Source: a virus
Virus record (IMG/VR): IMGVR_UViG_3300009155_000048
Location: 32,001-96,000 of that record
Length of the DNA: 64,000 nucleotides
Direction: 5' to 3' (one strand)
The notes under the pieces were generated by a model. It had not been told where the DNA came from. It did no database searches and saw only the letters and a list, made by a program, of their open reading frames with translations. Both the position numbers and the translations under genes were made by a program. Shown piece after piece: positions 2,876 through 36,396 of this stretch (position 1 is the first letter of the stretch; every line of letters begins with the position of its first letter).

Positions 2876-3309
2876 ATAGATATAGAAGGATTGATTTTAT
2901 CAACTCTTTTTTCATGCCTACCACCCTCAAATTCCGTGTCTAAAAATACCTCTACTATTCCAATTGCTTCTTCAATTGAAATAAATCTAGCAGGTAAACA
3001 CAAAACATTAGCATTATTATGTTGTCTAGCTAGTGAAGCAATCTCACTATTCCAACAAAGAGCAGCTCTAATATCTCTCCATTTATTCGCAGTCATACAA
3101 ATACCATTTCCGGTACCACAGATTAGAATACCAATAACAGATTCTTCATCTAAAATTGAAGCAGTAACAGCATGTGCATAATCTGGATAATCTACACTTT
3201 CAGTAGATTCAGGTCCAAAATCAATTACAGGGACTCCTTGTTCGGAAATCCAATTAATTAAGGCTTCTTTCATTTCATAACCAGCATGGTCAGATCCAAT
3301 TGCAATCAT
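2872..3309 (-). CDS. rpiB: Ribose-5-phosphate isomerase B
   Basis: IGSDHAG, DYPDYA, GILICGTGNG, ARQHNNANVL, FEGGRHEKRV. Confidence 0.95.
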   Translation of the reverse strand: MIAIGSDHAGYEMKEALINWISEQGVPVIDFGPESTESVDYPDYAHAVTASILDEESVIGILICGTGNGICMTANKWRDIRAALCWNSEIASLARQHNNANVLCLPARFISIEEAIGIVEVFLDTEFEGGRHEKRVDKINPSISI

Positions 3310-4004
3310 AATAATTCATCTAATTTTCTATCTCTATTAATTTGGACATATTTAGCATTATATTCATTCACATAGTGAAGATTAATAAAGTTATTTTTAT
3401 TTAAAACAATTTGATAATTTAATTGTGATATAAATTTCGGCCCACTCAACGAAGTGGTGTTAATATTTGAAGCCACCGGTTCATCAATTTCATAATTATA
3501 ATTAAATGAGTCTTCTTTACCACAAATGATTGTCTTATCATCCCATCGCTTGAAAGCATCTATATAAACAGATATACCTCCAATTTCACCTAATTTATAA
3601 AAAGTATTACTATTACTTACCTTATTTATAGATTCATTGTGGAATAAAACAGATTCTTGAGCAAACATTCCAATTTGAGATGAACAAATGATAAAATCAA
3701 AGTTATTTTCTTTTAGATAATGATAGAGTACACCCATACCATCCGATTCGGATAAATTCATAACATCTAAGAATTCCTCTGATGTAGATTTCATTTCCTT
3801 AAATATTTCTTTATGAAATGATTGAGACAATTCTTGTATCAATAAAGAATTATATTTCGCATCAATATCTAATTTTAGATTAAATGCGTTTTGAAGTGAT
3901 ACCATTTCATCTCTAGTGATAGACATAGATACTTGTATTTTCTGTGATACCGGGAGTCTTTTATCCAACACTCCTAATTTTAATAATTCTGAATTAATTT
4001 GCAT
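3306..4004 (-). CDS. Degenerate paralog of the C-terminal part of the major capsid protein with RDRKLDELL tail
   Basis: SLLIQELSQSFHKEI vs capsid SILVNELSQTISKQI; YKLGEIGGISVYIDAFKRWDDKTIICGK vs YPVGQIGDIQIYVDPYMKYNDNRIVIGR. Confidence 0.7.
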   Translation of the reverse strand: MQINSELLKLGVLDKRLPVSQKIQVSMSITRDEMVSLQNAFNLKLDIDAKYNSLLIQELSQSFHKEIFKEMKSTSEEFLDVMNLSESDGMGVLYHYLKENNFDFIICSSQIGMFAQESVLFHNESINKVSNSNTFYKLGEIGGISVYIDAFKRWDDKTIICGKEDSFNYNYEIDEPVASNINTTSLSGPKFISQLNYQIVLNKNNFINLHYVNEYNAKYVQINRDRKLDELL

Positions 4005-10243: not shown

Positions 10244-11554
10244 ATGTCTAAACTAATGAAACTTAACGAAATTCAAGACGAGTCTGTATTAAATGATATC
10301 TTTAATAATGAGATAATAATATTTGAAGATATACAAGGTAGTAAAATATATGTAAACTGGAATGGTTCCAATTTTACAATTAAATCAAAATCATTATCAT
10401 CGGATCCTATCAATATGATTGATTTAGCTATGCAAAATTATTATAATAATGCTATTAGTTTTTTTAATAATCTTGATAACAGAGTTAAAGGATTGATTAA
10501 TAAAAAATGGTGGTTTTGTTTTGAATTTTTCCCAGATAATCAACCAGCAAATATTGAATACAATAGAGTTCCTAAAAATAATTTAGTCTTAACTTCTATC
10601 TACAAAGGTAACAAATTTGATTATACCATTGATGAATTAGAAGAATATGCTAGATTACTTGATGTTGATGTAATTCCGGTAATTTTCAAAGGCAAACTAA
10701 ATGAAAAAGTTATAGAAGCAATTAAATATTTCTTAAACACAAGTGAGTCAGACTTAGAATATGTATTTGGCGAGAAGTCATTTTCTTACTTCTTCTATAA
10801 AATATTAAGTCCACAAACTCAAAATTCATTTTTGATGAATGAAGACTTTCAAAAAAATGTTGAGAAGTTAATAATAAGAATTGATGGTAAAGATGTATCA
10901 TTTGAAATTTTGAATCCATTATATAAAAGAATATCGGACACAAACTCAACAGACTTTGTTGAAATTTACACACTTATATTAGTTAATTTCTTGAATTTCT
11001 GTCAATCAATAGACTTTAATCAAATTAAAGTAAAGGGAAATAAAAGAGATGAAGTTTATATCTATTTAATTTGTAAGTTATTCAATATGTACTTATCGGA
11101 AGTAAAAGATGATATTGCTAATTTTCAATTTACTGTACCCGAATTCTTTGATAAAGATAAATTTAGAATTAACACAGAGTTGATTCCAAATAAAATGACT
11201 AAACAATTCATTTCAGAGGATAAAAAGTTTGAATATATTTTCAAAGTAATTTTAGGTAGTTTCAATAAGAAGAGAAAGAAACCAATTGGCGTATTCACAG
11301 AAGGAACAATTAACATATTTAACAATTTTGTACAAATGATACAAGAAAAAATTGATGAATTCTTTAACAAAAAAAGTGAGATTGAATTAACCAGAAGTGG
11401 ACTAATTGACTTCTCACAATGGTTTGATGTTAAATATGATGTGGATGCGGAAGAAAATGTTTATCCAGATGTATATACCGAATTAGAAAAAGGTAAGGAA
11501 AAAGATAAAAAAGGAACAAAGGGTGGAAAGTTTGGAGAATATGAAAAGAAATAA
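10244..11554 (+). CDS. RNA-ligase-fold (Rnl2-like) protein, apparently lacking the catalytic Lys
   Basis: IFEDIQGS in place of ExKxxG; CFEF, VIPVIFKG, VEKLIIR in expected order. Confidence 0.5.
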   Translation: MSKLMKLNEIQDESVLNDIFNNEIIIFEDIQGSKIYVNWNGSNFTIKSKSLSSDPINMIDLAMQNYYNNAISFFNNLDNRVKGLINKKWWFCFEFFPDNQPANIEYNRVPKNNLVLTSIYKGNKFDYTIDELEEYARLLDVDVIPVIFKGKLNEKVIEAIKYFLNTSESDLEYVFGEKSFSYFFYKILSPQTQNSFLMNEDFQKNVEKLIIRIDGKDVSFEILNPLYKRISDTNSTDFVEIYTLILVNFLNFCQSIDFNQIKVKGNKRDEVYIYLICKLFNMYLSEVKDDIANFQFTVPEFFDKDKFRINTELIPNKMTKQFISEDKKFEYIFKVILGSFNKKRKKPIGVFTEGTINIFNNFVQMIQEKIDEFFNKKSEIELTRSGLIDFSQWFDVKYDVDAEENVYPDVYTELEKGKEKDKKGTKGGKFGEYEKK

Positions 11555-11714
11555 TATAGGTGGAGTATTTAAGGTTAATGCAACGGTAACAAAAACTATG
11601 ATTGAAGACTTAGAGAAACAACACGGGATTGATTTAGTCCAAAGATTGGAGAGTTTACTTGTTTTATTAACAGTTAGAAGACACCGAATTGAAAAAATAT
11701 TATCTAAAATTTAA
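11541..11714 (+). CDS. 57-aa capsid-fragment paralog with RRHRIEKIL tail
   Basis: VNATVTKTMIEDLEKQHGIDLVQRLESLLV vs capsid VSSALRRTEIEDIKANTGMDIVQKMESILV; ATG 11541 preferred over GTG 11523. Confidence 0.7.
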   Translation: MKRNNIGGVFKVNATVTKTMIEDLEKQHGIDLVQRLESLLVLLTVRRHRIEKILSKI

Positions 11715-11845
11715 TGCCATCTGCTCTTATATCAAAACCAAATAATTGGAGTATTTTATTGAAATATAAGAGAAGAGAAAAGTTGACTAAAATCTTAAAT
11801 AAAATATTAAAAACAATTTCGGTAAATTACATTATAATTGTATGA
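11714..11845 (+). CDS. 43-aa peptide with RREKLTKIL motif, absent from ORF track
   Basis: TAATG overlap upstream, ATGA overlap downstream. Confidence 0.5.
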   Translation: MPSALISKPNNWSILLKYKRREKLTKILNKILKTISVNYIIIV

Positions 11846-13065
11846 TCCAAGTAAAAGAGTATAAACCGAAATCTAAATACAACATAAGAAAAAAGTTAGA
11901 GTCAAAAAGATACAGTGTTCAATTTCTACCCGAACTTCTAATTCAAGAATCTCTTAATAAAAACTTCACATACAAAGAAACTAAGCTTAAAACAGCTTAT
12001 CTAATTGATATCACACACAATTTATTACTTAAATACTACTTCAAGAAAGATAACTTATTTAATCTATCATCAGTAGTTCTTAAAGAAAAATATGGTTATC
12101 TATATAACTATTATATGGACTATCTTGTTTCTAAAGACATTCTTAAACTAGTAAAAAATCACCAAAAAGGTAAAAATGCCAGAATCTATAAATTAAATGA
12201 AAAGATTATTAATGGTAAAATCACTCGATATAAAAATGAGGATTCAATCCTATTAAAGAAATACAAGAATGCTGTATCTTTAATTGAGAAACAAGATATA
12301 GACAGTAATACAATCAATCCAGATGTAAAGAGAAAATTAGTTGATGATTTATTTCATGTTCAAATTCAATTTGATAAGGCTATATTTTTCTTAGATTCAA
12401 CTCTACAAGATGTAGATATCTATAATAGAAATAAGTATAGTGTTGAATGTATAAATGATAAACACATATTCTATCACTTTGATAACTATGGCAGAATGCA
12501 CACAAATTTTACTATTTTAAAATCTTTTATTAGAAAAAATTGTCTTCTTATTAATGGAGAAGAAACCAGTGAAATTGATATCAAAAATAGTCAACCATTA
12601 TTTCTCTGTAAGTTAATAGAATCCGATGGTTTAATAATTGTCAATACTGATGAATTTGAACTTTTCAAATTTTTGACATATAATGGTAAGTTCTATCAAT
12701 ACTTAATGGATAATTCCAAGTATAGAGATAGAAAAAATGTTAAAGAAATGATTTATAAGGTTTTTTTTGGTAAGAACTTCAAAAGCAAAGGTGATGATTT
12801 ATTTAAATCATTATTTCCTACAATACATGAATTTATCAAAATCTACAAAAAAGAACATGGTGATTATAGAATTTTAGCACATGACCTTCAAAATTTAGAA
12901 AGCAATCTAATTTTTAACAAAATTGTAAAGGAGATCATGTATATATACCCTGAGGTAAATTTAATAACTATACATGATAGTATTATTTGTAATACAAAAT
13001 ATAGAGATGTGGTTGAAAAGATTTTCCACAAAAACTTAGAAAAAGAATTTCAAAAAATAATATAA
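11842..13065 (+). CDS. Family-A polymerase-like palm protein with N-terminal wHTH-like region
   Basis: GRMHT, EIDIKNSQP (motif A-like), LQNLES, TIHDS (motif C-like); no exonuclease domain. Confidence 0.6.
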   Translation: MIQVKEYKPKSKYNIRKKLESKRYSVQFLPELLIQESLNKNFTYKETKLKTAYLIDITHNLLLKYYFKKDNLFNLSSVVLKEKYGYLYNYYMDYLVSKDILKLVKNHQKGKNARIYKLNEKIINGKITRYKNEDSILLKKYKNAVSLIEKQDIDSNTINPDVKRKLVDDLFHVQIQFDKAIFFLDSTLQDVDIYNRNKYSVECINDKHIFYHFDNYGRMHTNFTILKSFIRKNCLLINGEETSEIDIKNSQPLFLCKLIESDGLIIVNTDEFELFKFLTYNGKFYQYLMDNSKYRDRKNVKEMIYKVFFGKNFKSKGDDLFKSLFPTIHEFIKIYKKEHGDYRILAHDLQNLESNLIFNKIVKEIMYIYPEVNLITIHDSIICNTKYRDVVEKIFHKNLEKEFQKII

Positions 13066-13069
13066 TATA

Positions 13070-13240
13070 ATGAAAAACTACGGGTTATACACAAAAGAAA
13101 GAGGAGATAGAGTTGTTGAGATAATTAATAGAGTTCAAGCGGAAACACTTGAAGAAGCTATTATAATCTTTTCTAAAATAAAGAAACTTACTAAGAAAAA
13201 TATCATAGATATTTTTGACGTTAAAGAGATAACCAAATAA
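13070..13240 (+). CDS. Hypothetical 56-aa protein, absent from ORF track
   Basis: MKNYGLYTKERG...DVKEITK fills the gap. Confidence 0.6.
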   Translation: MKNYGLYTKERGDRVVEIINRVQAETLEEAIIIFSKIKKLTKKNIIDIFDVKEITK

Positions 13241-13267
13241 GGTTATCTTTTTTAATATATACCTGAT

Positions 13268-13843
13268 ATGTTTAATCTATCAGATCCAAATATTTCCTAC
13301 TTACTCATATCACCAGAAAAAAGTGATAATCTACCTTCAGATAATAATTTAAATTGTGAGAAGGTTTGTAGTATTTTATACTCTAAAGATTATACCATAA
13401 TACCAGTAACCGGATATTATGAGAATAAATATGAAAAGTCTTTTATTGCAATAAGCTCTAATGATGATAATGATTCTCTAAGATTTGATGCGATTTATTT
13501 AATGGATAAATTTGACCAAGATGCTGTTATAGTTAAATATAAAGGCGATGAAATAGCAACAAAAGTAGAATCTACCGGAACAGAAAAACCAATGAGTGTT
13601 GCCATTTATGACTCCGACTTAAAAAATAAAACTTATCTATATAACGGTGTTTCTTTTTCATTTGTAGAAAAGAAAAGATACTTTTTCCCAAAGAAAAAAG
13701 AAGACCTAAAAAACGGAATGATTGTTGAGTTCTTTAATAATAATAAATGGATACAAAGACAAGTAATTAACATTGAATCGGAATATGAAAAAATGTTTAA
13801 ATTACTTATAAAATATGAGAAAATAAGAGTAGAATGTAAATAA
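13268..13843 (+). CDS. Hypothetical protein
   Basis: 191-aa ORF behind TAATATATA. Confidence 0.7.
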   Translation: MFNLSDPNISYLLISPEKSDNLPSDNNLNCEKVCSILYSKDYTIIPVTGYYENKYEKSFIAISSNDDNDSLRFDAIYLMDKFDQDAVIVKYKGDEIATKVESTGTEKPMSVAIYDSDLKNKTYLYNGVSFSFVEKKRYFFPKKKEDLKNGMIVEFFNNNKWIQRQVINIESEYEKMFKLLIKYEKIRVECK

Positions 13844-13876
13844 AAAAGAGAGTTAAATTAATTTAACTCTCTTTTT
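13843..13876. terminator. Bidirectional terminator between convergent genes
   Basis: AAAAAGAGAGTTAAAT-TA-ATTTAACTCTCTTTTT. Confidence 0.75.
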
Positions 13877-13879
13877 CTT

Positions 13880-14623: not shown

Positions 14624-14717
14624 GCAATTTTTTTATTTTTTATTTATATAATGATATTTGAATTTTGTTTGATATATTCAAATAAATAACCTATATTTGC
14701 TGTTTATATATAATTAT

Positions 14718-15278
14718 ATGATTGATTTATCCAAAGGACTAAGTTTATTTATATCAAATGATAACCAAATTGAACTATGTTTATCCAGTCTGACTAACTT
14801 TTTATCAGAAGAATACACAGTTTTAACTTTCTCTTTTGGCAAAGATAAATTTGGATTATCACCAACAGAAGATAACTTTAAAGAACAAGTTAAAAAGAAT
14901 CTCTTTAGAGTTGAAATGCTAGTAGTTCACCTTAACTATAAATTAAAGAATTATACTGACTTTTTCAATTTTTTAACAAGTTTAAATCTTATAGTCTTTA
15001 TAGTGACACCACGATCTAAATCAGATATTTTGTTAGATAACTCCGGTAGTTACATTAGAAACTTCTATGAGGTTAAAGATAATCCAGATTATTTAACATC
15101 AAGTCTTAAAAGGTTTTCAAATCTAACAATTACAAATATTGATTTGGATTCTTTACCCGATAAATATTTAATCAAAAATATTAATACTGATGAAGAGTTC
15201 ACAGTAAGTCAATATAAGAAATCTTATATTAGAGATAAGAAAATTGACATTTTTTTAGATGATAATGACCAGGATTAA
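14718..15278 (+). CDS. Hypothetical protein, possibly degenerate RecA/DnaB fold, with RDKKIDIFL tail
   Basis: ATG 14718; GLSLFIS...TVLTFSF...EMLVVH pattern without Walker A. Confidence 0.5.
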   Translation: MIDLSKGLSLFISNDNQIELCLSSLTNFLSEEYTVLTFSFGKDKFGLSPTEDNFKEQVKKNLFRVEMLVVHLNYKLKNYTDFFNFLTSLNLIVFIVTPRSKSDILLDNSGSYIRNFYEVKDNPDYLTSSLKRFSNLTITNIDLDSLPDKYLIKNINTDEEFTVSQYKKSYIRDKKIDIFLDDNDQD

Positions 15279-17806: not shown

Positions 17807-18601
17807 ATGCCAGAGATTTCGGAAGTTAGAATAATGTCTGATTTTATTAATCAGAATTCCAAGAACAAATTTAATAAAGCCTTTCACGTTGAAAAAGGAA
17901 ATATTCCTACACAATTCCTTGATAAAGAATTTGATATAAAATCTGATTCTAGAGGAAAAGAACTATTACTATTCATTGATGATTTACCTATTCATGTCTT
18001 TATGGGAATGAGTGGCAATTGGAAATATACTCCAACTGAAAAATGGAATGAAACTAAATTCACTAGGCTTAGACTAGATGACGAAACCGGACACTCACTA
18101 TTATTATATGGTGGGTTTATGGGACCAAAATACTCGGTTGGTAAACCATTCACCGGAACCAAAAGAGGACCAGATCCAACTAAAGAGTTTGATGATTTCA
18201 AATCAAATATCTATAAGAATATAGACAATAAAGCTTTTGATAAACCTATCTGCGAAACTTTACTTAATCAAGAGTATTTTAATGGAATTGGCAACTATAT
18301 CAGAAGCACCTTAATATTCTATGCTGATGTGAATCCATTTGAAAAAGCAAGAACTATATTACAAAATTCTGATAGAGTACTTAATTTATGTAAGGATGTT
18401 CCTCTTAAATCTTATGAATTGAACGGTGGGCAACTCAAAGATTGGAAATCACCATTTGATACCGACTCTACTGAATTTAAGAAATGGGTATTTTATCAAA
18501 AGGGATTGGCTTGTACCGATAAAACCGGTAGAACATTCTGGTTTGATGAGAAATGGAAGGACTATTGTCCATATGAAATTAAGAAAAAACGTGGAAAATA
18601 A
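17807..18601 (+). CDS. Fpg/Nei DNA glycosylase, NEIL1-like
   Basis: N-terminal MPE, GMSG, GPD, LLNQEYFNGIGNY (H2TH), GRTFWF; start moved to the MPE ATG. Confidence 0.9.
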   Translation: MPEISEVRIMSDFINQNSKNKFNKAFHVEKGNIPTQFLDKEFDIKSDSRGKELLLFIDDLPIHVFMGMSGNWKYTPTEKWNETKFTRLRLDDETGHSLLLYGGFMGPKYSVGKPFTGTKRGPDPTKEFDDFKSNIYKNIDNKAFDKPICETLLNQEYFNGIGNYIRSTLIFYADVNPFEKARTILQNSDRVLNLCKDVPLKSYELNGGQLKDWKSPFDTDSTEFKKWVFYQKGLACTDKTGRTFWFDEKWKDYCPYEIKKKRGK

Positions 18602-19061
18602 CTTTATTTATAGTGATAGAGGTGAGGGTAAAACTGAATTTATAACAAGATTAGCCAATGATTTATATAGAAAAGGTGGTTATAAAATAGATTTTTATTC
18701 ACTAACATCAGAGAGTTTACCGAATTTAGAAAGAGGAATTTCATATGATATTTACCCAAATAATATTGTAAATAGAAATTACATTTTAGACCTCAAAAAA
18801 GAAAAGATAAAAGCAGGTAAACTAGATATTCTTTTCATAGATGATATAGATTACTTAGATAATTGGGATGATATATTATCACTAAATTGTGATAAATTTA
18901 TCACTGTTGATATATTGGAAGAAAGAAATTACCCAAAAAGAAGCTGTAATATGGTAAAATTAAAAGGAAACTATAATCTTTTTCACTTACCTGATATAGA
19001 ATATAATAGCTTCTTAAAACCTTATTTAAGAGAGAAAAAATTAGACATATTATTAAAATGA
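18573..19061 (+). CDS. Short RecA/DnaB-like P-loop protein with REKKLDILL tail
   Basis: RGEGKT, FYSL, ILFIDD; ATG 18573 preferred. Confidence 0.55.
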   Translation: MKLRKNVENNFIYSDRGEGKTEFITRLANDLYRKGGYKIDFYSLTSESLPNLERGISYDIYPNNIVNRNYILDLKKEKIKAGKLDILFIDDIDYLDNWDDILSLNCDKFITVDILEERNYPKRSCNMVKLKGNYNLFHLPDIEYNSFLKPYLREKKLDILLK

Positions 19062-20344: not shown

Positions 20345-22096
20345 TTAGTTAAGTAATCCAGGAGTATCAGACACTTTAATTGTCATATACTGCTTTTGAG
20401 GATACCAACCCACTTCAGCAACTGCGTATCTAGATCTTAACAACATACGTGGAGCGAATGTAGCTTCAGAGATGATACTGATTGACTGAGCCATTAAGTA
20501 AGGTACGAAGATGATACCTGGTTGATCAGGATTGTTCTTTCTACCAATAACGATACGGTTATCGTTATACTTCATGTAAGGGTCAACATAGATTTGGATA
20601 TCACCGATTTGACCAACTGGATACAATTGACCAGAACCGTTGATTTTAGATTTAGTTGGATTAATAGTATATCCAGCGACATCCATTAAAGCTGCAGCTA
20701 AACCTCCGTTAGTTACTGCGAATTGTGCAGGACCAACACGACCTTCTGTTGCAATATAGTTAGAAGCGTGAACCATCTTAGTGATCAACTTACGTTGAAC
20801 AGCGTGTGTAGTTTCACCACCAACTTGAGTTTGAGTGTAAAGAGTATCTAAGTCAAAAATAGTTGGACTAGAGATGTTATTGCTATAAGTAGCACCAGAT
20901 GCTGGAGCTGAAGATCTGTTCAAGTCACCCATTTCAAAGATTTTAGATACAATTTGTTTAGAAATTGTTTGAGACAATTCGTTAACAAGGATAGATTCCA
21001 TTTTTTGAACGATATCCATACCAGTGTTAGCTTTGATGTCTTCAATTTCAGTTCTTCTAAGAGCTGAAGATACTTCAATAGTACCAACCGCGATAGACTT
21101 AGTAGAAACTTTTGGTCCAATTACACCAGCATAAGTCAAATCATCTTCAGCACGACTCATTGGGTATCTACCATTCTGAGAGTTTGTAGAGAAGTTTGTA
21201 GAGAAACCTGGTAATTGATCTTCTAATGCAGAAATCATAGTAACAGTTAAGTTAGAAGTACTTGAGAAAGTAAGACCAGGAATAGCTGTTAATTGAGACT
21301 GGATTGTAGCAGAAGGAGTAAATGTATTTTGAGTTTGGTCAAAAGCTGCTGCTGCTGGGTTATAAACGTTAGCAATTGTTTGTGAACCAATAGTAGCATT
21401 TGCTTGTCTAAATGCTCTGAAGATAGGAAGACCATCGATACGAGAGTAACCTAAGAATTCAAGAACGTTAGCTTTAGAACCACTAATAGATGTACCTGTT
21501 GAAACAGATGCAGCATAGTTACCTAAAGTAAAGTAAGCCTTAGTACCAGTAGCACTTTGGAAACCACCAACTGTTAAAACGATATCAGTTGAAGAAATTG
21601 CAGTTGAAACTTTAGTACCAAACGCACCACTTTGTAACATACCAGCTGTATCAGTTGAGTTAGTTGATACGATTTTAAATACTTGAGGTGCACCATATGT
21701 AGTATCAACATCATCATATTGGAAGTCAATATACAATAAGTCTAATTTTGGACCTGGTGAAGGTTTTACAGCAACTAAATCTAAACCGATTGTTTGAGCT
21801 GCGATTTTCATAGCAACTGGTAATAAGTTTTGACCTAAGTCACCAGAACCAGCCGAACCTGAGTTACTTGACCAGTTAGTACCAAGTGTAGTACCTGATA
21901 AAGTTGATGGTTGAGGAGATGTAACTGCACCCATACCTTGGATTGTTGCGTTTACATACGCATTTTCATTGATAGAGTGGAACTCTGCGTATTCTGACAT
22001 CCAATCAAGTCTGTCTTCACCAGCAACGCCCATGTTCTCTAATACTGGAGACCACTTCTTCAATGCTTTTTGTTTGTCTATTCTAATGTGTGACAT
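20345..22096 (-). CDS. Major capsid protein (T4 gp23-like)
   Basis: KKWSPVLE, DLVAVKP, IEDIKA.TGMD, IYVDPY, FVPY, TFAPRMLLRSRY; follows protease gene. Confidence 0.92.
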   Translation of the reverse strand: MSHIRIDKQKALKKWSPVLENMGVAGEDRLDWMSEYAEFHSINENAYVNATIQGMGAVTSPQPSTLSGTTLGTNWSSNSGSAGSGDLGQNLLPVAMKIAAQTIGLDLVAVKPSPGPKLDLLYIDFQYDDVDTTYGAPQVFKIVSTNSTDTAGMLQSGAFGTKVSTAISSTDIVLTVGGFQSATGTKAYFTLGNYAASVSTGTSISGSKANVLEFLGYSRIDGLPIFRAFRQANATIGSQTIANVYNPAAAAFDQTQNTFTPSATIQSQLTAIPGLTFSSTSNLTVTMISALEDQLPGFSTNFSTNSQNGRYPMSRAEDDLTYAGVIGPKVSTKSIAVGTIEVSSALRRTEIEDIKANTGMDIVQKMESILVNELSQTISKQIVSKIFEMGDLNRSSAPASGATYSNNISSPTIFDLDTLYTQTQVGGETTHAVQRKLITKMVHASNYIATEGRVGPAQFAVTNGGLAAALMDVAGYTINPTKSKINGSGQLYPVGQIGDIQIYVDPYMKYNDNRIVIGRKNNPDQPGIIFVPYLMAQSISIISEATFAPRMLLRSRYAVAEVGWYPQKQYMTIKVSDTPGLLN

Positions 22097-22181: not shown

Positions 22182-24293
22182 TTAAAGATTTTTGAATCTC
22201 TCCATAATTGCAGTTACATCACCATCAGACAATTTGTCTTCTTGAATTAACGCATTATGTTCAACTAATTTTTTAGTTACAGATTCATTTTTCTTGAATG
22301 GTCTTGTTAACCAGAAATGTTCAACTTTTGATTCAGTTGTTAAGTCTGGGTACAATCTAGCTTGCGATAAGATAGACTTTTTAGAAGATTCATTCAATTG
22401 TGACCAGATTGGCTTAATGTTTTCAGGCATCAATCTAATCAATCTCTCTTCAAGAGATTCATTTTTAACAGATAACGCTTCTCCAATCATCTTTAACACA
22501 TCAGAACTAGTGAAATAACTCTTTTCGTTTATGTAAAGTTTTACTTGTTCTTGCTCCTCGTTTGTTAAGCTGTAATAGCTATCAACTTGGGACTTGTTTA
22601 AGAATTTTAAGAAATGTAAATCATTGGACTCAGAAACTTTACGTTTTTTAGCTTCTTCAATTAATTTATCAATTTGTTGAGATAATTCTGTATCAGAATT
22701 GCCTTCGAATTTAGATTCTTCTCCATAAGGATTTTCCTCTTCTTTTTCATGTGCCATTGGCATTCCCGGCATTCCTTCTTCTTCACCATATGTACCTTCT
22801 TCTGAAGCTACTAAGTGAGGCATACCTTCTTCTTCCTCTTCTTCATATGCCATTGGCATTCCTTCTTCTTCTGAAGCAATCATTTCAAATCCTACTTCTT
22901 CTAAAGTTGGGAATGAATTACCTTTACTTTCATTTAATTTATTACCATTTAATTTCTCAGCAATTAAACCCGCGTAAGAAACAGTTTTATCTAAGTTTTC
23001 AGCAATATACTCAGAGTAAGCGATGTTATCATCTAAGTGTTCAGCAATGTATTCAGAGTAAGCGATGTTACCTTCTACATGCTCAGCTAAATATTCAGAA
23101 TAAGCAATAGAGTTATCTACATGCTCAGCGATATACTCAGAGTAAGCAATATTCTTATCTAAGTTTTCAGCGATGTACTCAGAGTAAGCAATATTCTTAT
23201 CTAAGTTTTCAGCGATGTACTCAGAGTAAGCAATATTCTTATCTAAGTTCTCAGCTAAATATTCAGAATAAGTGATATTCTTATCAACATTCTCAGCTAA
23301 ATATTCAGAGTAAGAAATATTTTTGTCTAAGTTTTCAGCTAAGTACTCAGAATAAGTGATGTTCTTATCTAAGTTTTCAGCTAAGTATTCAGTGTAATTA
23401 ACAGCCTTTTCTAAGTTTTCAGCTAAATAATCATTGTGAGAGATCAACTTATCAGTAGTTGATTTCAATGATTTATTTTCATTAACCACAACTTGAACTT
23501 TTTCAGCTAAGTAATCTAAATACTTAACCATTTGAGAGTTAGTCTTATTAAGTTCTTCATAGTACTCAAGAAGTTGCTCTAATTTTTTCGGATTGATGTT
23601 ACCTGATTTAATAGCAGATTGTGCAGCTTTCTTAGTAGTAGCGATTTCATTAATCAAATACTTAGAATAGTCAGCTAATTGCTGTTTGGTAACGAAGTCA
23701 TTCTGGTTCATATTGAATAGTTCGTTTATTTTTGACTCATCGGACATTTCATATATCCTAAAGTTAGTTTTATTGGAAAACCCATATGATTCATTTATGG
23801 ATTTCATTCTAGCTGAAGCAAATCCTGGGTCAGCAACAATGTCGTAAGTAAACAATTTCTTTAAAGTAACAGTACCATCTGATTCAGTGATACCAGCAGC
23901 TCTTGAAGAAACGAATACAGGACAACCATCATCAACTAAAGATTTAGCTTCTTTACCCCAATAGGTATTCAATAATTTAATCTCACCCTCAACACGATTA
24001 GATTCTTTAACATAAGAAGCTTTTCTAATAATGTGTGAAGCGCGAGATAATGATGTATCAAATACATCTGGGTGATCGAATTCACCATAAACAACACCCA
24101 TATTTTGAATACGGTCATTAAGTTCTTCTAAACAAGGAATAAACTTATCTGCAGTGTAGATTCTTTCATTACGGTTTTTAACACCGAACTCAGTAAAAAT
24201 ACCACCTAAGATATAGTCTTTCTTGCCACCAGAAACTTGAACGCTCTCCTTTAATGGGTTTGAGTTGTTTTCAACGATTAAGATTGGTTTCAT
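22182..24293 (-). CDS. Prohead protease (gp21-like) fused to repeat/scaffold region
   Basis: KNRNERIY, GEFDHP, SHII, VSSRAAG, TYDIVADPGF. Confidence 0.9.
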   Translation of the reverse strand: MKPILIVENNSNPLKESVQVSGGKKDYILGGIFTEFGVKNRNERIYTADKFIPCLEELNDRIQNMGVVYGEFDHPDVFDTSLSRASHIIRKASYVKESNRVEGEIKLLNTYWGKEAKSLVDDGCPVFVSSRAAGITESDGTVTLKKLFTYDIVADPGFASARMKSINESYGFSNKTNFRIYEMSDESKINELFNMNQNDFVTKQQLADYSKYLINEIATTKKAAQSAIKSGNINPKKLEQLLEYYEELNKTNSQMVKYLDYLAEKVQVVVNENKSLKSTTDKLISHNDYLAENLEKAVNYTEYLAENLDKNITYSEYLAENLDKNISYSEYLAENVDKNITYSEYLAENLDKNIAYSEYIAENLDKNIAYSEYIAENLDKNIAYSEYIAEHVDNSIAYSEYLAEHVEGNIAYSEYIAEHLDDNIAYSEYIAENLDKTVSYAGLIAEKLNGNKLNESKGNSFPTLEEVGFEMIASEEEGMPMAYEEEEEEGMPHLVASEEGTYGEEEGMPGMPMAHEKEEENPYGEESKFEGNSDTELSQQIDKLIEEAKKRKVSESNDLHFLKFLNKSQVDSYYSLTNEEQEQVKLYINEKSYFTSSDVLKMIGEALSVKNESLEERLIRLMPENIKPIWSQLNESSKKSILSQARLYPDLTTESKVEHFWLTRPFKKNESVTKKLVEHNALIQEDKLSDGDVTAIMERFKNL
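22950..23438 (-). repeat. About 12 x 42-bp in-frame repeats encoding YSEY[LI]AE[NH][LV]DKNI[AST]
   Basis: Counted in the translation; synonymous variation between units. Confidence 0.9.
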
Positions 24294-25287: not shown

Positions 25288-26994
25288 TTAGAATTCAAAT
25301 TCAGCACCTTCACCACCAGCTTCTCCGCCACCACCTTCACCACCCGGTTCTGGACCAGCCTCCGGAGTTGTTTGAGCTCCTCCTTCAGGGGCAGCTTGAG
25401 CACCACCTTCGGCACCAGGTTCACCACCTTCAGCACCAGCTTCAGCACCACCTTCTGGGCCAGCACCACCGCCTTTACCAGATTTAATCCAATAGGCTTT
25501 ATTTTCTTCTTTTTCTTCTGGTGTCAATTTCATAACTTTATCAATTAAATAATCAATATGGAAATATGGTTGGCCATCAGCAGTTTGAATTCCCAACATA
25601 GTGCCTAAAATACTAGCTCTCTTTTCAAAATTTGCCAACTTTTTCCACTCTTCAAATAATTGATTTGAATTAAAATTGATATCTACTTGGTTTAAGAATA
25701 TCTCATCATTTTTCAATTCTGGAAATTCCATACACATTTGTAATTTAAGTGGTTTAACAATTAATTCTTTATAGTTAGCTCTTAAACGGTTAATAAAGTT
25801 ATTAAATTTAACTTCATCTCTAGTCATCTCAGCCGCATCACTAAATACATTACCACCACCATTTTCTTTATCAAATCTTTGGAAAGGAATTTTAGATGCT
25901 CTTTTTAAGATATTAAAGAACCAAGTTAACATATCATTCTCATTTAAGTTGTGACCTTCCGGTGAGACTAATTCCATACCAGGTGTACCAGCATCTCCTT
26001 CTGGGAACCACACTTGTTTATTATATGGTAAATGTTTTCTACCATTTATAGTAACAGTACCCAATGTATCATCCCATTCAACTTCTTCCGAGTAATCAGC
26101 AATTAATTGACCAATTTGTTCTTCAGCACGTTGTCTAGGTAAACCTTTAATTGGAATAGTAAACTTTTGATAAACAGTAGCGTTGATAATATTGAACATA
26201 ATTTTAGTTTGTTCAAGAATCTTTAACTGATTATATGGTTTAATTAAACCCTCAAGATATGAAGTTTCAGAATAATCATTCTGTGTTGAATATGAAATAA
26301 ATACCAATTGAGAATCTAAGAAGATTCTTCTTAATTGTGGATCCTCTGGATATTGAATCCAAAGATTACCAATAGATGGCTCATATGCTGGAACTAATGT
26401 TTCGGGTCTTAGTCTATTAAAGTGAATAATATTTTTTTTCTTATCATCCCAAACAATTTCAATTGCAATATAACCATCAATTAAGAAGTCTTTCATCATA
26501 TTCCAAGCAGTGATATTATCACCAAATCCAAATCTATTATAAATAATTTCAAAATACTCTTGATACTTATCCTTAATATCTTGTGAGTAGTCATTTGATA
26601 AAGGTCTAGGTGAACAAAAATCATTCTCATTATAGATAATTGCCTCATCGGAAACCGATGAAACAAAATCTCTTAATTCATCCTTAATTGAATATTCTCT
26701 TAAAATTCTTCTCTTATCAGCATAACTTCTATCTAAATACGGAACCGACTTTCTATTAAGAACAGACGCAACCGCTTTGGATGAAAAGAAATCATACATC
26801 GAATTATTTTTCTGACTGTACGGATCCTCATTAATACCAACACCGACAGTGTTTCTGATAATCATATCATCATACTTCATACCGAAGTTTGATAAATTAC
26901 GAAGCAATCTATTAAAAAGACCCTTATTCTCAACCGCAGATGAGATATAAGTAGAATTTTGATTTTGTTGATTTAGCGGATTATAAGAAGCCAT
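25288..26994 (-). CDS. Portal protein (gp20-like)
   Basis: IDG, YLE..IKPYNQLKILE, G.LPRQRAE, ASKIP..R, TRDEVKF..FINRLR. Confidence 0.9.
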   Translation of the reverse strand: MASYNPLNQQNQNSTYISSAVENKGLFNRLLRNLSNFGMKYDDMIIRNTVGVGINEDPYSQKNNSMYDFFSSKAVASVLNRKSVPYLDRSYADKRRILREYSIKDELRDFVSSVSDEAIIYNENDFCSPRPLSNDYSQDIKDKYQEYFEIIYNRFGFGDNITAWNMMKDFLIDGYIAIEIVWDDKKKNIIHFNRLRPETLVPAYEPSIGNLWIQYPEDPQLRRIFLDSQLVFISYSTQNDYSETSYLEGLIKPYNQLKILEQTKIMFNIINATVYQKFTIPIKGLPRQRAEEQIGQLIADYSEEVEWDDTLGTVTINGRKHLPYNKQVWFPEGDAGTPGMELVSPEGHNLNENDMLTWFFNILKRASKIPFQRFDKENGGGNVFSDAAEMTRDEVKFNNFINRLRANYKELIVKPLKLQMCMEFPELKNDEIFLNQVDINFNSNQLFEEWKKLANFEKRASILGTMLGIQTADGQPYFHIDYLIDKVMKLTPEEKEENKAYWIKSGKGGGAGPEGGAEAGAEGGEPGAEGGAQAAPEGGAQTTPEAGPEPGGEGGGGEAGGEGAEFEF

Positions 26995-35418: not shown

Positions 35419-36396
35419 ATGAAACAACTATTACTATCAGAGAAGTGGCGCCCTAAAACAATTGAGGACGTAATCCTTTTACCAAGAATCCGTAAAATAT
35501 TTGAGAACGGTCTCAACCAAAATGTTATTTTATATGGTCATTTTGGAACCGGCAAAACTACTATTGCTCGCATACTAGTAGGCAAGTATCTCAAGAATAC
35601 ACCACACATAGAATTAAATAGTTCATTCTACACATCTATCGACACACTTAGAAATAAGATTGATGACTTTTGTTCAAAAGTTTATATGGGGTTTGATATG
35701 AATGTAGATATATCAAATGATACAATCAAATATGTATTCTTGGATGAATTTGAAAGAACATCCATTCAATATCAAGATGCACTTAAAGCTTATATTGAAG
35801 AATTCTCAAAGAAAAATGTTAGATTTATCCTAACAACAAACCACATCAACAAAGTTTCACCAGGAATTCGATCTAGATTAATTGAAGTAAACTTTGATTG
35901 TCAATCTCCAGAAGAAGAGAAATATCTTAAAACAGAAATCTATAAAAAGATTAGTACCGTAATTGCTCCACAAGAAGAATTTGAAATTCCAAAAGAAGAG
36001 TTGATTAAGATAATAAATAAAAAGTTTCCAGACTTTAGGTCAATAATGATTGATGTTGATAACTTCAAACAAACTGGATTATCAAATGAATCTGGATGCA
36101 CAATCAATATTAAGTTAAGAAATGATTTATATGCAATTCTTTTTGATAAAAGTAAGACATATGATGAGATATATCATTTTTTAATGAATAATTTTGGACC
36201 AGAAAAGATTGATGAAATGATTTCTCTTTTTGGTAGACCATTTATTGAGTGGTCAATTAATGAAAAAAAATCTAATATTGAAAAGTTATTTCAAGTAAAC
36301 TATATTATCACCGAACACACAAAGTTATTAGAGACTAATACCGACCCGATTGTTTTGGGAATGACTGTTATTGGTAAGATTCGTGATATTTTTTAA
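35419..36396 (+). CDS. Clamp loader ATPase (gp44/RFC-like)
   Basis: EKWRP, GHFGTGKTT, LDEFE, IRSR, FPDFR. Confidence 0.92.
   Translation: MKQLLLSEKWRPKTIEDVILLPRIRKIFENGLNQNVILYGHFGTGKTTIARILVGKYLKNTPHIELNSSFYTSIDTLRNKIDDFCSKVYMGFDMNVDISNDTIKYVFLDEFERTSIQYQDALKAYIEEFSKKNVRFILTTNHINKVSPGIRSRLIEVNFDCQSPEEEKYLKTEIYKKISTVIAPQEEFEIPKEELIKIINKKFPDFRSIMIDVDNFKQTGLSNESGCTINIKLRNDLYAILFDKSKTYDEIYHFLMNNFGPEKIDEMISLFGRPFIEWSINEKKSNIEKLFQVNYIITEHTKLLETNTDPIVLGMTVIGKIRDIF

What the first reader, a model, noticed from the sequence alone, without database searches (positions are those of the whole stretch)
11541..11845. 57-aa mini-protein reproducing one capsid segment, followed by a tag-only peptide
About 30 residues match capsid IEDIKANTGMDIVQKMESILV (IEDLEKQHGIDLVQRLESLLV) and are followed directly by the tag. 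The same segment is also retained in 3306-4004. From memory of T4 gp23, it lies close to the gol-peptide region that activates the Lit defence protease; this needs alignment. The next coupled ORF is little more than the tag.
Basis: partly seen in the sequence, partly recalled or inferred. Interest (0 to 1): 0.7.

Follow-up and report, generated by a model that had tools for sequence, protein, structure and literature searches.

The report
Capsid-piece mini-gene plus decaying duplicate
A giant lake phage keeps a small, selected gene that copies only the best-conserved strand-and-helix piece of a T4-type head-shell protein and ends in a short docking helix shared with other small proteins; the tiny ORF behind it is a decaying leftover of a second copy, and the proposed link to the T4 Gol/Lit suicide switch does not hold.

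Summary
ORF 11541-11714 (57 aa) matches residues 338-371 of the phage's own gp23-type capsid protein (BLASTP E 1e-8). It belongs to a family found at the same place in 45 of 58 related megaphage loci. Over 100 clusters of 50-75 aa turn up in a search of 1.8 billion proteins. The family is under purifying selection (dN/dS 0.16-0.4). 27 of 29 members hit Pfam Gp23.

The copied piece corresponds to T4 gp23 residues about 248-298. Gol lies in the first quarter of gp23, so the Gol/Lit reading is not supported. Most family members resemble canonical T4-type gp23 more than the megaphage's own diverged capsid; this window's copy is an exception.

The 43-aa "tag-only" ORF occurs only in this lineage. 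Its tag and the spacer behind it are homologous in DNA to the 3' end of a sister phage's mini-gene. Its last 12 codons are read-through after a lost stop. A 5-nt deletion breaks it in near-identical strains from two other studies. It is a decaying relic.

The function is untested. My best guess is molecular mimicry of a conserved capsid element, with the tail docking to an unidentified reader.

This scan has already found the same class in other megaphage genomes. I found no published description.

The parts
11541..11714 (+). Mini-gene, 57 aa plus stop: capsid-derived strand and helix followed by a C-terminal docking helix
   Evidence: ORF. Present at the same position in 45 of 58 related loci. 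dN/dS is 0.16-0.4 in close pairs and 0.37 against L003. AF2 model: pLDDT 73.5, helices 18-27 and 32-56, N-terminus unstructured.
11562..11663 (+). Capsid-like segment (residues 8-41), equivalent to T4 gp23 about 257-290
   Evidence: BLASTP against own capsid E 1e-8. Pfam Gp23 profile positions 149-179, E 0.011 for this member; 27 of 29 family members hit, best 4.4e-15. Family profile against PDB: T4 gp23 257-302, E 1.7e-7. hhalign against T4 gp23: 94.7%.
11676..11711 (+). C-terminal tail R46-R-H-R-I-E-K-I-L-S-K-I (shared tag)
   Evidence: R46 is the only invariant column of the 29-member alignment. The tail consensus is R-K-x-x-I-x-K-I-F. C-terminal enrichment of the motif in this genome. Highest pLDDT (about 90) in the model.
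11714..11845 (+). 43-aa ORF: relic of a second tandem mini-gene (tag at 11771-11797; read-through of the former spacer from 11807)
   Evidence: Found only in the window and the near-identical L003. Window 11778-11846 matches L004 2937-3005 (3' end of that phage's mini-gene plus spacer) at 75.7% over 70 nt, E 1e-5. The L004 stop TAA aligns with TTA here. A 5-nt deletion at 11776 in DNA contigs of two studies cuts it to 23 aa without the tag.
20345..22096 (-). Major capsid protein gene, 583 aa, gp23 family; the copied segment lies at 20984-21085 (residues 338-371) and the Gol-equivalent stretch at about 21749-21826 (residues 91-116)
   Evidence: Pfam Gp23 E 1.8e-27. The segment is almost invariant in 48 related capsids. 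T4 gp23 1-120 aligns colinearly with capsid 7-116.
3306..4004 (-). 232-aa truncated capsid paralogue that begins with the same segment and ends in R-D-R-K-L-D-E-L-L
   Evidence: BLASTP against capsid 340-521, E 3e-9. Motif at the extreme C-terminus.
10244..11554 (+). Upstream gene of the operon, 436 aa, RNA-ligase-like; overlaps the mini-gene start
   Evidence: ORF. Protein-atlas neighbours carry PF09414 RNA_ligase (a lead only). Pfam and PHROGs find nothing.
11842..13065 (+). Downstream gene, 407 aa, family-A polymerase palm-like
   Evidence: ORF. Atlas cluster name 'DNA polymerase family A palm domain' (a lead only). 58 relatives in viral contigs.
13843..13877 (.). Bidirectional terminator-like hairpin that closes the operon 10244-13843
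   Evidence: Terminator scan; no terminator-like site lies inside the operon.

Best explanation
Shown: 11541-11714 is a genuine, selected micro-gene of a megaphage (a relative of the 634-735 kb LR7455xx/LR7565xx phages and the Lak phages). Its product is a stand-alone copy of the beta-strand, short helix and first half of the spine helix of a gp23-type (HK97-fold) major capsid protein, equivalent to T4 gp23 about 248-298. It ends in the short basic amphipathic helix R-x-x-[KR]-[IL]-x-x-[IL]-[LF], which several unrelated small proteins of this genome also carry at their C-termini. It sits in a non-structural operon between an RNA-ligase-like gene and a polymerase-A-like gene. Inferred mechanism: the body acts as a molecular mimic. 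It offers the most conserved gp23 surface or peptide to whatever normally binds that element, which could be a host sensor of capsid protein, or capsid subunits of this or a rival T4-type phage. The tail plugs the protein into one common, still unidentified reader. On its own the protein is a helix-turn-helix with a floppy N-terminal strand, so it probably folds only on a partner. The 43-aa ORF 11714-11845 is not a second working part. It is the decaying 3' remnant of a second, tandem mini-gene: the tag is kept, the capsid-like half is lost, and the stop is read through. A sister lineage (L004) shows the mirror image. My confidence is about 0.85 that the gene is real and capsid-derived, about 0.75 that the 43-aa ORF is a relic, and about 0.35 for mimicry as the function.
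For: Homology to capsid. Conservation and selection: and 1363 hits at E<=0.001 with over 100 representative clusters of 50-75 aa matching the whole profile. The mini-proteins keep the canonical gp23 residues (T-R-x-L-K-A-x-W-T-x-E-L-x-x-D-L-x-x-Y-H-G-x-D). 24 of 29 score higher against the T4 gp23 segment than against the megaphage capsid segment, so they are not recent debris of the resident capsid gene. Near-complete relatives hold one full capsid gene plus 2-5 small ORFs carrying different gp23 pieces. This contig holds a second tagged piece: 68 aa, capsid 513-561, E 3e-12, Pfam Gp23 25.7 bits. Non-structural context. A related class of gp23-piece proteins also sits among accessory genes (Mom, TROVE, glycosyltransferase, HNH). 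Major capsid proteins are known triggers of several bacterial defences (PMC9712102). Relic status of the 43-aa ORF. Contigs from an RNA library lie on 10716-11651 and cross the junction between the upstream gene and the mini-gene; this is weak, because DNA carry-over is not excluded.
Against: No partner is known for either the body or the tail. Five related loci have the two flanking genes abutting with no mini-gene, and 12 of 58 loci lack it altogether, so it is dispensable. This window's copy resembles its own capsid type (score 81) more than canonical gp23 (44), unlike most of the family. One target for the whole family is therefore not obvious. hhalign against the megaphage capsids runs through the tail as well (64 columns, 89%), so in this family the 'tag' might simply be the continuation of the spine helix and not a separate module. 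Translation is not shown. The evidence for a tandem duplication inside the window is weak on its own (DNA shuffle p 0.16, protein p 0.002).
Confidence: 0.5

Rival explanations
1. Gol-like peptide. The mini-protein carries or abuts the gp23 Gol determinant, binds EF-Tu, and activates or soaks up a Lit-type protease.
For: The Gol peptide shows that a short gp23 piece can act on its own on a host defence (PMC3014915; PMC9712102). In some metagenomic relatives the strand-helix piece is fused to the Gol-equivalent V-R-R-x-A-x-Q-x-I-x-x-D-L-V-x-V-Q-P piece (P0051, P0082, P0101, P0114, P0140). The two pieces may therefore be neighbours in the fold.
Against: The family maps to T4 gp23 248-302, not to the first quarter where Gol lies. 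It has no similarity to T4 gp23 1-131 or to the equivalent stretch of its own capsid. A free Gol-like peptide would trigger Lit, not block it. No Lit homologue or host is known here.
Confidence: 0.03
2. Assembly factor for the phage's own head. The fragment docks on the resident capsid protein by strand or helix complementation and delays, chaperones or caps assembly until late in infection.
For: This window's copy is closest to its own capsid type. The conserved residues are the ones conserved in capsid proteins themselves. The isolated protein is not globular.
Against: Most family members resemble canonical gp23, not the resident, nearly invariant megaphage segment. The gene lies in a non-structural operon and is missing from 12 of 58 related loci.
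Confidence: 0.17
3. Weapon against rival T4-type phages. The canonical-type fragments poison the capsid assembly of co-infecting phages, while the megaphage's own capsid has diverged at exactly this segment and is immune.
For: 24 of 29 members score higher against T4 gp23 than against the megaphage capsid. The resident segment is invariant within the clade but differs from the canonical motif. Several different gp23 pieces are kept per genome.
Against: The window's copy and L019's copy are of the resident type. There is no evidence of binding. The pattern is equally explained by an old origin followed by purifying selection.
Confidence: 0.13
4. The tail is what matters. It is a sliding-clamp (PIP-box or T4 gp45-tail-like) or other hub-binding peptide, and the capsid-like body is only an inert carrier inherited from an old gene fragment.
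For: The tail is C-terminal, basic and hydrophobic, with hydrophobic residues at i, i+3 and i+4. Variants such as K-L-D-I-L-L and K-I-D-I-F-L on other proteins of the contig resemble T4 S-L-D-F-L-F and the bacterial Q-L-D-L-F (recalled from memory; motif list). A clamp-loader-like gene lies at 35419-36396. The gene is coupled to a polymerase-like gene.
Against: No gp45-type or DnaN-type clamp was detected by Pfam in this contig or in five relatives, three of them 95-98% complete. The body is under selection for the gp23 motif, which an inert carrier would not need.
Confidence: 0.1
5. Non-functional debris or chance ORFs.
For: True for the 43-aa ORF in the sense of a decaying relic. The mini-gene is dispensable in some relatives and frameshifted in L050.
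Against: For the 57-aa gene: conserved position, conserved motif over 17-35% sequence identity, dN/dS well below 1, and a large metagenomic family.
Confidence: 0.03

Closest known systems
T4 gp23 major capsid protein and gp24 vertex protein (Pfam PF07068; PDB 6uzc, 5vf3, 8gmo, 1yue)
   Same: Clear sequence homology over the strand-plus-spine-helix element. T4 gp23 257-302, E 1.7e-7; gp24 167-213, E 0.012.
   Different: Only about 45 of roughly 450 fold residues are present. There is no A-domain, E-loop, N-arm or C-terminal strands. The protein carries an extra C-terminal tail and is encoded in a non-structural operon.
Gol peptide of T4 gp23 (activator of the e14 Lit protease through EF-Tu)
   Same: A short piece of gp23 that is active outside the capsid context (PMC3014915).
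   Different: Gol is a 29-residue part of the full-length protein in its first quarter. The mini-protein is a separately encoded copy of a different region, about 130-150 residues further on.
T4 alt.-1 / alt.-2 (small ORFs left by a partial duplication of a virion-protein gene)
   Same: Small ORFs that arose by partial duplication of a phage structural gene followed by a new stop, as the T4 record itself notes. This is a good analogue for the 43-aa relic and perhaps for the origin of the family.
   Different: Those lie next to their parent gene and have no shared tail. The mini-gene family is dispersed, widely conserved and tagged.
C-terminal sliding-clamp-binding tails of T4 gp43, gp33 and gp55; PIP-box peptides
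   Same: Short C-terminal hydrophobic/basic peptides that let many different proteins dock on one hub. The spacing of hydrophobic residues is similar.
   Different: The consensus differs (invariant Arg, no Q, few aromatics). No clamp gene was found. Binding is untested.
Tagged capsid-fragment mini-proteins noted earlier in this scan in other megaphage genomes (unpublished AI notes)
   Same: Same design: a gp23 piece plus the shared C-terminal helix, several per genome, function untested.
   Different: New here: the mapping against Gol, the resident-type spelling of this copy, and the relic nature of the adjacent tag-only ORF.

Membership tests
Pfam Gp23 (PF07068), T4-type major capsid protein | Significant match to the family profile | tested here: inconclusive
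   The window's member scores 15.6 bits, E 0.011, below the 24.4-bit cut-off. 27 of 29 family members match, best E 4.4e-15. The family profile hits T4 gp23 at E 1.7e-7. The protein is homologous to a piece of the family.
Pfam Gp23 (PF07068), T4-type major capsid protein | Complete HK97-type fold (N-arm, E-loop, P- and A-domains) able to form a shell | tested here: not met
   57 aa cover profile positions 149-179 of 376. The AF2 model shows two helices and a disordered N-terminus.
Gol peptide / Lit activator | Corresponds to the Gol region in the first quarter of gp23 | tested here: not met
   It aligns to T4 gp23 248-302. No similarity to gp23 1-131, p 0.23. Gol location from PMC3014915.
Gol peptide / Lit activator | Binds EF-Tu domains II/III and promotes Lit cleavage of EF-Tu | not testable with these tools
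   Needs biochemistry. No host or Lit homologue is known.
T4-type clamp-binding tail / PIP-box | C-terminal peptide with the hydrophobic docking pattern | tested here: inconclusive
   The tail is C-terminal, with I50, I53 and L54 after R46. It resembles but does not fit S-L-D-F-L-F or Q-x-x-L-x-x-F-F (consensus recalled from memory).
T4-type clamp-binding tail / PIP-box | A cognate sliding clamp encoded by the phage or host and bound by the tail | tested here: inconclusive
   No PF09116, PF02916 or PF02768 match in the contig. No PF09116 or PF02768 match in five relatives. Divergent clamps could be missed. A clamp-loader-like gene is present.
Megaphage tagged mini-proteins (class seen by this scan, not published) | Small protein ending in R-x-x-[KR]-[IL]-x-x-[IL]-[LF], conserved in relatives | tested here: met
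   R46 is invariant and the tail is conserved in 29 members. The motif is C-terminally enriched in this contig.
Functional gene (for the 43-aa ORF 11714-11845) | Conservation of the open frame in relatives | tested here: not met
   Absent from 56 other loci. Identical in L003, so that locus is uninformative. Frameshifted by a 5-nt deletion in contigs of two other studies.

The most novel reading that the evidence does not exclude
Megaphages carry a panel of address-tagged pieces of the canonical T4-type capsid protein (strand-helix piece, C-terminal strand piece, others). The panel would work as decoys or poisons in capsid-centred conflicts. The pieces would either blind host defences that sense conserved gp23 elements or sabotage head assembly of rival T4-type phages. 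The megaphage's own capsid has diverged at these very elements.
Probability: 0.3. Interest if true: 0.85.

Novelty: categorically new. Interest (0 to 1): 0.6.

Why it matters
Capsid proteins are among the commonest triggers of bacterial anti-phage systems. A separately encoded, selected and widespread copy of the most conserved capsid element would be a new kind of phage tool, whether decoy, competitor or assembly poison. It would also give a handle on what recognises gp23-type capsids. The shared tail points to a docking system that serves many small megaphage proteins and whose reader is unknown. The relic ORF next door shows how such genes turn over, through tandem copies and reciprocal decay. 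It also warns against counting every tag-bearing ORF as a working gene.

Tried and rejected
1. Co-fold of the capsid (alignment A4) with the mini-protein (A1): no verdict, score 0.00 against a mark of 0.32, and the partner's own fold was uncertain. This is not evidence either way.

2. tblastn of the 57-aa protein against 50,697 phage records found nothing, and PHROGs found nothing. The query is too short and too diverged.

3. Duplication inside the window. BLASTP of the 57-aa protein against the 43-aa ORF gives no alignment. DNA shuffle p is 0.16 and protein shuffle p is 0.002, but the score is only slightly above other small ORFs. I dropped this as stand-alone proof. The relic reading rests on the L004 DNA homology instead.

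4. Orthology of the L004 30-codon relic to the window's 57-aa tail. The relic matches both window tails about equally (36 against 34, p about 0.01), so the reciprocal-loss scenario stays an inference.

5. Clamp search with Pfam gp45 and DnaN models found none. The two ORFs upstream of the clamp-loader-like gene gave no Pfam clue.

6. Relatives of the 232-aa paralogue in viral contigs: only the near-identical contig was found.

7. Exact Gol coordinates: the primary paper is not held. My recollection of residues about 93-122 is unverified. I used the review's 'first 1/4 of gp23' instead.

8. RNA-library contigs do not cover 11658-11851, so nothing can be said about transcription of the 43-aa ORF.

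10. An alternative genetic code was considered and rejected. Stops of ORFs of 150 aa or more are TAA 64, TGA 12 and TAG 3, and the long genes are intact under table 11.
Full report
**What the window is**

The window lies in a 107-kb viral contig, estimated 19% complete, with about 30% G+C. Its 583-aa capsid protein (20345-22096, minus strand) belongs to Pfam Gp23 (E 1.8e-27). The closest capsids are those of the 634-735 kb 'uncultured phage' genomes LR756502 and LR745206 (64% identity); the Lak megaphages of Prevotella are more distant (30%). Table 11 fits: stops of long ORFs are TAA 64, TGA 12, TAG 3. The DNA occurs in freshwater and lake metagenomes from many studies.

**Checking the observation**

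- The 57-aa ORF 11541-11714 starts 14 nt before the stop of a 436-aa gene and ends in TAATG.
- The 43-aa ORF 11714-11845 ends in ATGA, which is the start of a 407-aa gene.
- There is no terminator-like site until 13843-13877, so these genes form one operon.
- Residues 8-41 of the mini-protein match capsid residues 338-371 (41% identity, 76% positives, E 1e-8).
- ORF 3306-4004 keeps the same segment and more of the capsid (E 3e-9).

**Is the mini-ORF a gene?**

I used the 407-aa downstream protein to fetch 58 related viral loci.

- A 53-73 aa ORF sits at the same place in 43 of them. L003 and a displaced copy in L021 bring the total to 45.
- It is split by a frameshift in L050.
- It is absent from 12 loci. 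In five of these the two flanking genes abut.
- The two annotated megaphage genomes also have it.
- The 29 distinct sequences share only 17-35% identity with the window's copy. They still keep the pattern strand, T-R-x-L-K-x-x-W-T-x-E-x-x-x-D-L-x-x-x-H-x-x-D, helix, and R-K-x-x-I-x-K-I-F. R46 is the single invariant column.
- Close pairs give dN/dS of 0.16-0.4, and window against L003 gives 0.37.
- A profile search of 1.84 billion representative proteins found 1363 hits at E<=0.001. Over 100 clusters of 50-75 aa match the whole profile.

The gene is real and selected, though dispensable.

**Is it capsid-derived, and from which part?**

- 27 of 29 members hit Pfam Gp23, best E 4.4e-15. The window's own member is weak (E 0.011).
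- The family profile hits solved T4 gp23 at residues 257-302 (E 1.7e-7) and gp24 at 167-213.
- hhalign against T4 gp23 gives 94.7% over residues 248-298.
- This region is the strand that enters the P-domain, a short helix, and the first half of the spine helix.
- AF2 predicts helices 18-27 and 32-56 and an unstructured N-terminus (pLDDT 73.5). That is what one expects of a piece that needs a partner to fold.

**Gol and Lit**

A review of T4 post-transcriptional control places Gol function in a 29-residue region, with stable EF-Tu binding by 100 residues, 'from the first 1/4 of gp23' (PMC3014915). The mini-protein maps about 130-150 residues further on.

- It shows no similarity to T4 gp23 1-131 (p 0.23).
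- It shows none to the colinear stretch of its own capsid, residues 80-135 (p 0.19).
- It is significantly similar to gp23 240-320.
- The Gol-equivalent stretch of this capsid, around residues 91-116, is not copied in the mini-gene.

The two elements may still be neighbours in the fold: some metagenomic relatives fuse the strand-helix piece directly to the Gol-equivalent piece. I could not measure distances.

**Resident or foreign type?**

Within 48 related megaphage capsids the copied segment is almost invariant, but it differs from the canonical gp23 motif.

- 24 of 29 mini-proteins score higher against the T4 gp23 segment than against the megaphage segment.
- The window's copy (81 against 44), L019, L015 and L004 are the reverse.
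- The family profile also scores T4 gp23 higher (34.6 bits) than the resident capsids (about 23 bits).
- The DNA of the window's copy and its capsid gene is only about 60% identical over the segment, so there has been no recent gene conversion.
- Five relatives, three of them 95-98% complete, hold one full capsid gene each plus 2-5 small ORFs carrying different gp23 pieces, and no second full-length canonical paralogue.
- This contig holds a second tagged piece 30 kb upstream of the window: 68 aa, capsid 513-561, E 3e-12, Pfam Gp23 above its cut-off, ending in R-R-S-K-K-I-K-K-V-L.

**The tail**

- In called genes of the contig, 6 of 7 motif hits lie within 16 residues of the C-terminus. Shuffles give a mean of 0.08.
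- Two caveats apply: the motif was defined after the fact, and wrong-frame ORFs carry it at a similar overall rate.
- Its conservation in the mini-protein family is the stronger argument.
- hhalign against the megaphage capsids runs through the tail, aligning it to the end of the spine helix (64 columns, 89%). In this family I cannot exclude that the tail descends from the capsid helix itself.
- It resembles clamp-binding tails, but no clamp was found.

**The 43-aa ORF**

- It occurs only here and in the near-identical L003, where the DNA is identical and therefore uninformative.
- An open frame of this length is unlikely by chance (0.8-1.9%), so it was recently coding.
- Its tag and the following spacer (11778-11846) are homologous in DNA to the 3' end of the mini-gene of sister phage L004 plus its spacer (75.7% over 70 nt, E 1e-5). 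Both lie at the same distance from the polymerase-like gene.
- The L004 stop TAA aligns with TTA here, so the last 12 codons are read-through.
- L004 shows the mirror arrangement: a 30-codon tag-only remnant, then an intact 62-aa mini-gene, behind a 1.8-kb insertion with an endonuclease-like gene. This suggests two tandem mini-genes in the common ancestor and reciprocal decay. The protein statistics for this are weak.
- DNA contigs from two other studies carry the L003-type mini-gene intact, but also a 5-nt deletion at 11776. That deletion truncates the 43-aa ORF to 23 residues and removes its tag.

It is a relic.

**Context and expression**

The upstream gene is RNA-ligase-like and the downstream one is family-A-polymerase-palm-like; these are protein-atlas leads only. 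Contigs from a lake metatranscriptome library lie on 10716-11651 and cross the junction into the mini-gene, but DNA carry-over cannot be excluded. A different class of gp23-piece proteins also sits among accessory genes (Mom, TROVE, glycosyltransferase, HNH) in viral contigs.

**Mechanism**

Shown:
- a selected, capsid-derived, non-globular micro-protein with a conserved tail;
- encoded in a non-structural operon;
- one of several gp23 pieces per genome.

Inferred: mimicry of a conserved capsid element, with the tail as a docking peptide. I could not decide between a decoy for host sensors, interference with rival phages, and control of the phage's own assembly. The one co-fold job gave no verdict.

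**Novelty**

Two literature searches found no description. Earlier notes of this scan report the same class in other megaphage genomes, also without a function or a reader.

Noticed in passing
L062:1202-1408 (- strand; contig C1, about 30.6 kb upstream of the window start): A second tagged capsid fragment of 68 aa. Residues 2-50 match capsid 513-561 (E 3e-12; Pfam Gp23 25.7 bits, profile 301-354), followed by R-R-S-K-K-I-K-K-V-L. It overlaps the start of a 157-aa ORF that ends in Y-L-R-D-V-K-I-D-T-L-L-K.
   Followed up: partly
P0051, P0082, P0101, P0097, P0114, P0140, P0087, P0145; L146:5001-5642: Metagenomic proteins of 115-280 aa join the strand-helix piece of gp23 directly to the N-terminal V-R-R-x-A-x-Q-x-I-x-x-D-L-V-x-V-Q-P piece (Gol-equivalent), that is, in permuted order. 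Some have repeated F-K-F-F-R-G-like ends. One class lies in viral contigs among Mom, TROVE, glycosyltransferase and HNH genes.
   Followed up: partly
window 34057, 34650, 36828, 37514, 40554, 46873, 9688 and others (N-termini): Many unrelated proteins start with M-K-[YH]-L-K-x-F-E-x-F. From memory this resembles the T4 capsid-targeting sequence of internal proteins (M-K-T-Y-Q-E-F-I-A-E). Not tested.
   Followed up: no
window 10244-11554: The RNA-ligase-like protein has E-D-I-Q-G-S-K where ligases have the K-x-D-G nucleotidyl-transfer motif. The change is conserved in relatives, so the enzyme may use another lysine or be inactive. Read by eye only.
   Followed up: no
window 11842-13065: A 407-aa minimal family-A-polymerase-like protein (G-R-M-H-T-N-F, I-D-I-K-N-S-Q-P, H-D-S motifs by eye; the atlas cluster name agrees). 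It has 58 relatives in viral contigs.
   Followed up: partly
L004:915-2715: In the sister phage a 1.8-kb cassette (a 319-aa endonuclease-like gene on the minus strand plus three small ORFs) is inserted between the RNA-ligase-like gene and the mini-genes. It cuts the first mini-gene down to a 30-codon tag-only remnant.
   Followed up: partly
L050:2743-2939: The mini-gene is split into two overlapping frames. This is a frameshift or an assembly error.
   Followed up: no
window 18426-19061, 14697-15278; L062:739-1212: Three otherwise unrelated proteins end in a longer shared motif, [SP]-Y-[LI]-R-[DE]-x-K-[IL]-D-x-[LF]-L. This is a sub-type of the tail and is closer to clamp-binding peptides than the mini-protein's tail is.
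   Followed up: no
window 22182-24293: The 703-aa protein upstream of the capsid gene has a weak N-terminal match to the prohead protease family Peptidase_S77 (E 6e-4). The T4-type portal is at 25288-26994 (E 1.9e-57).
   Followed up: no
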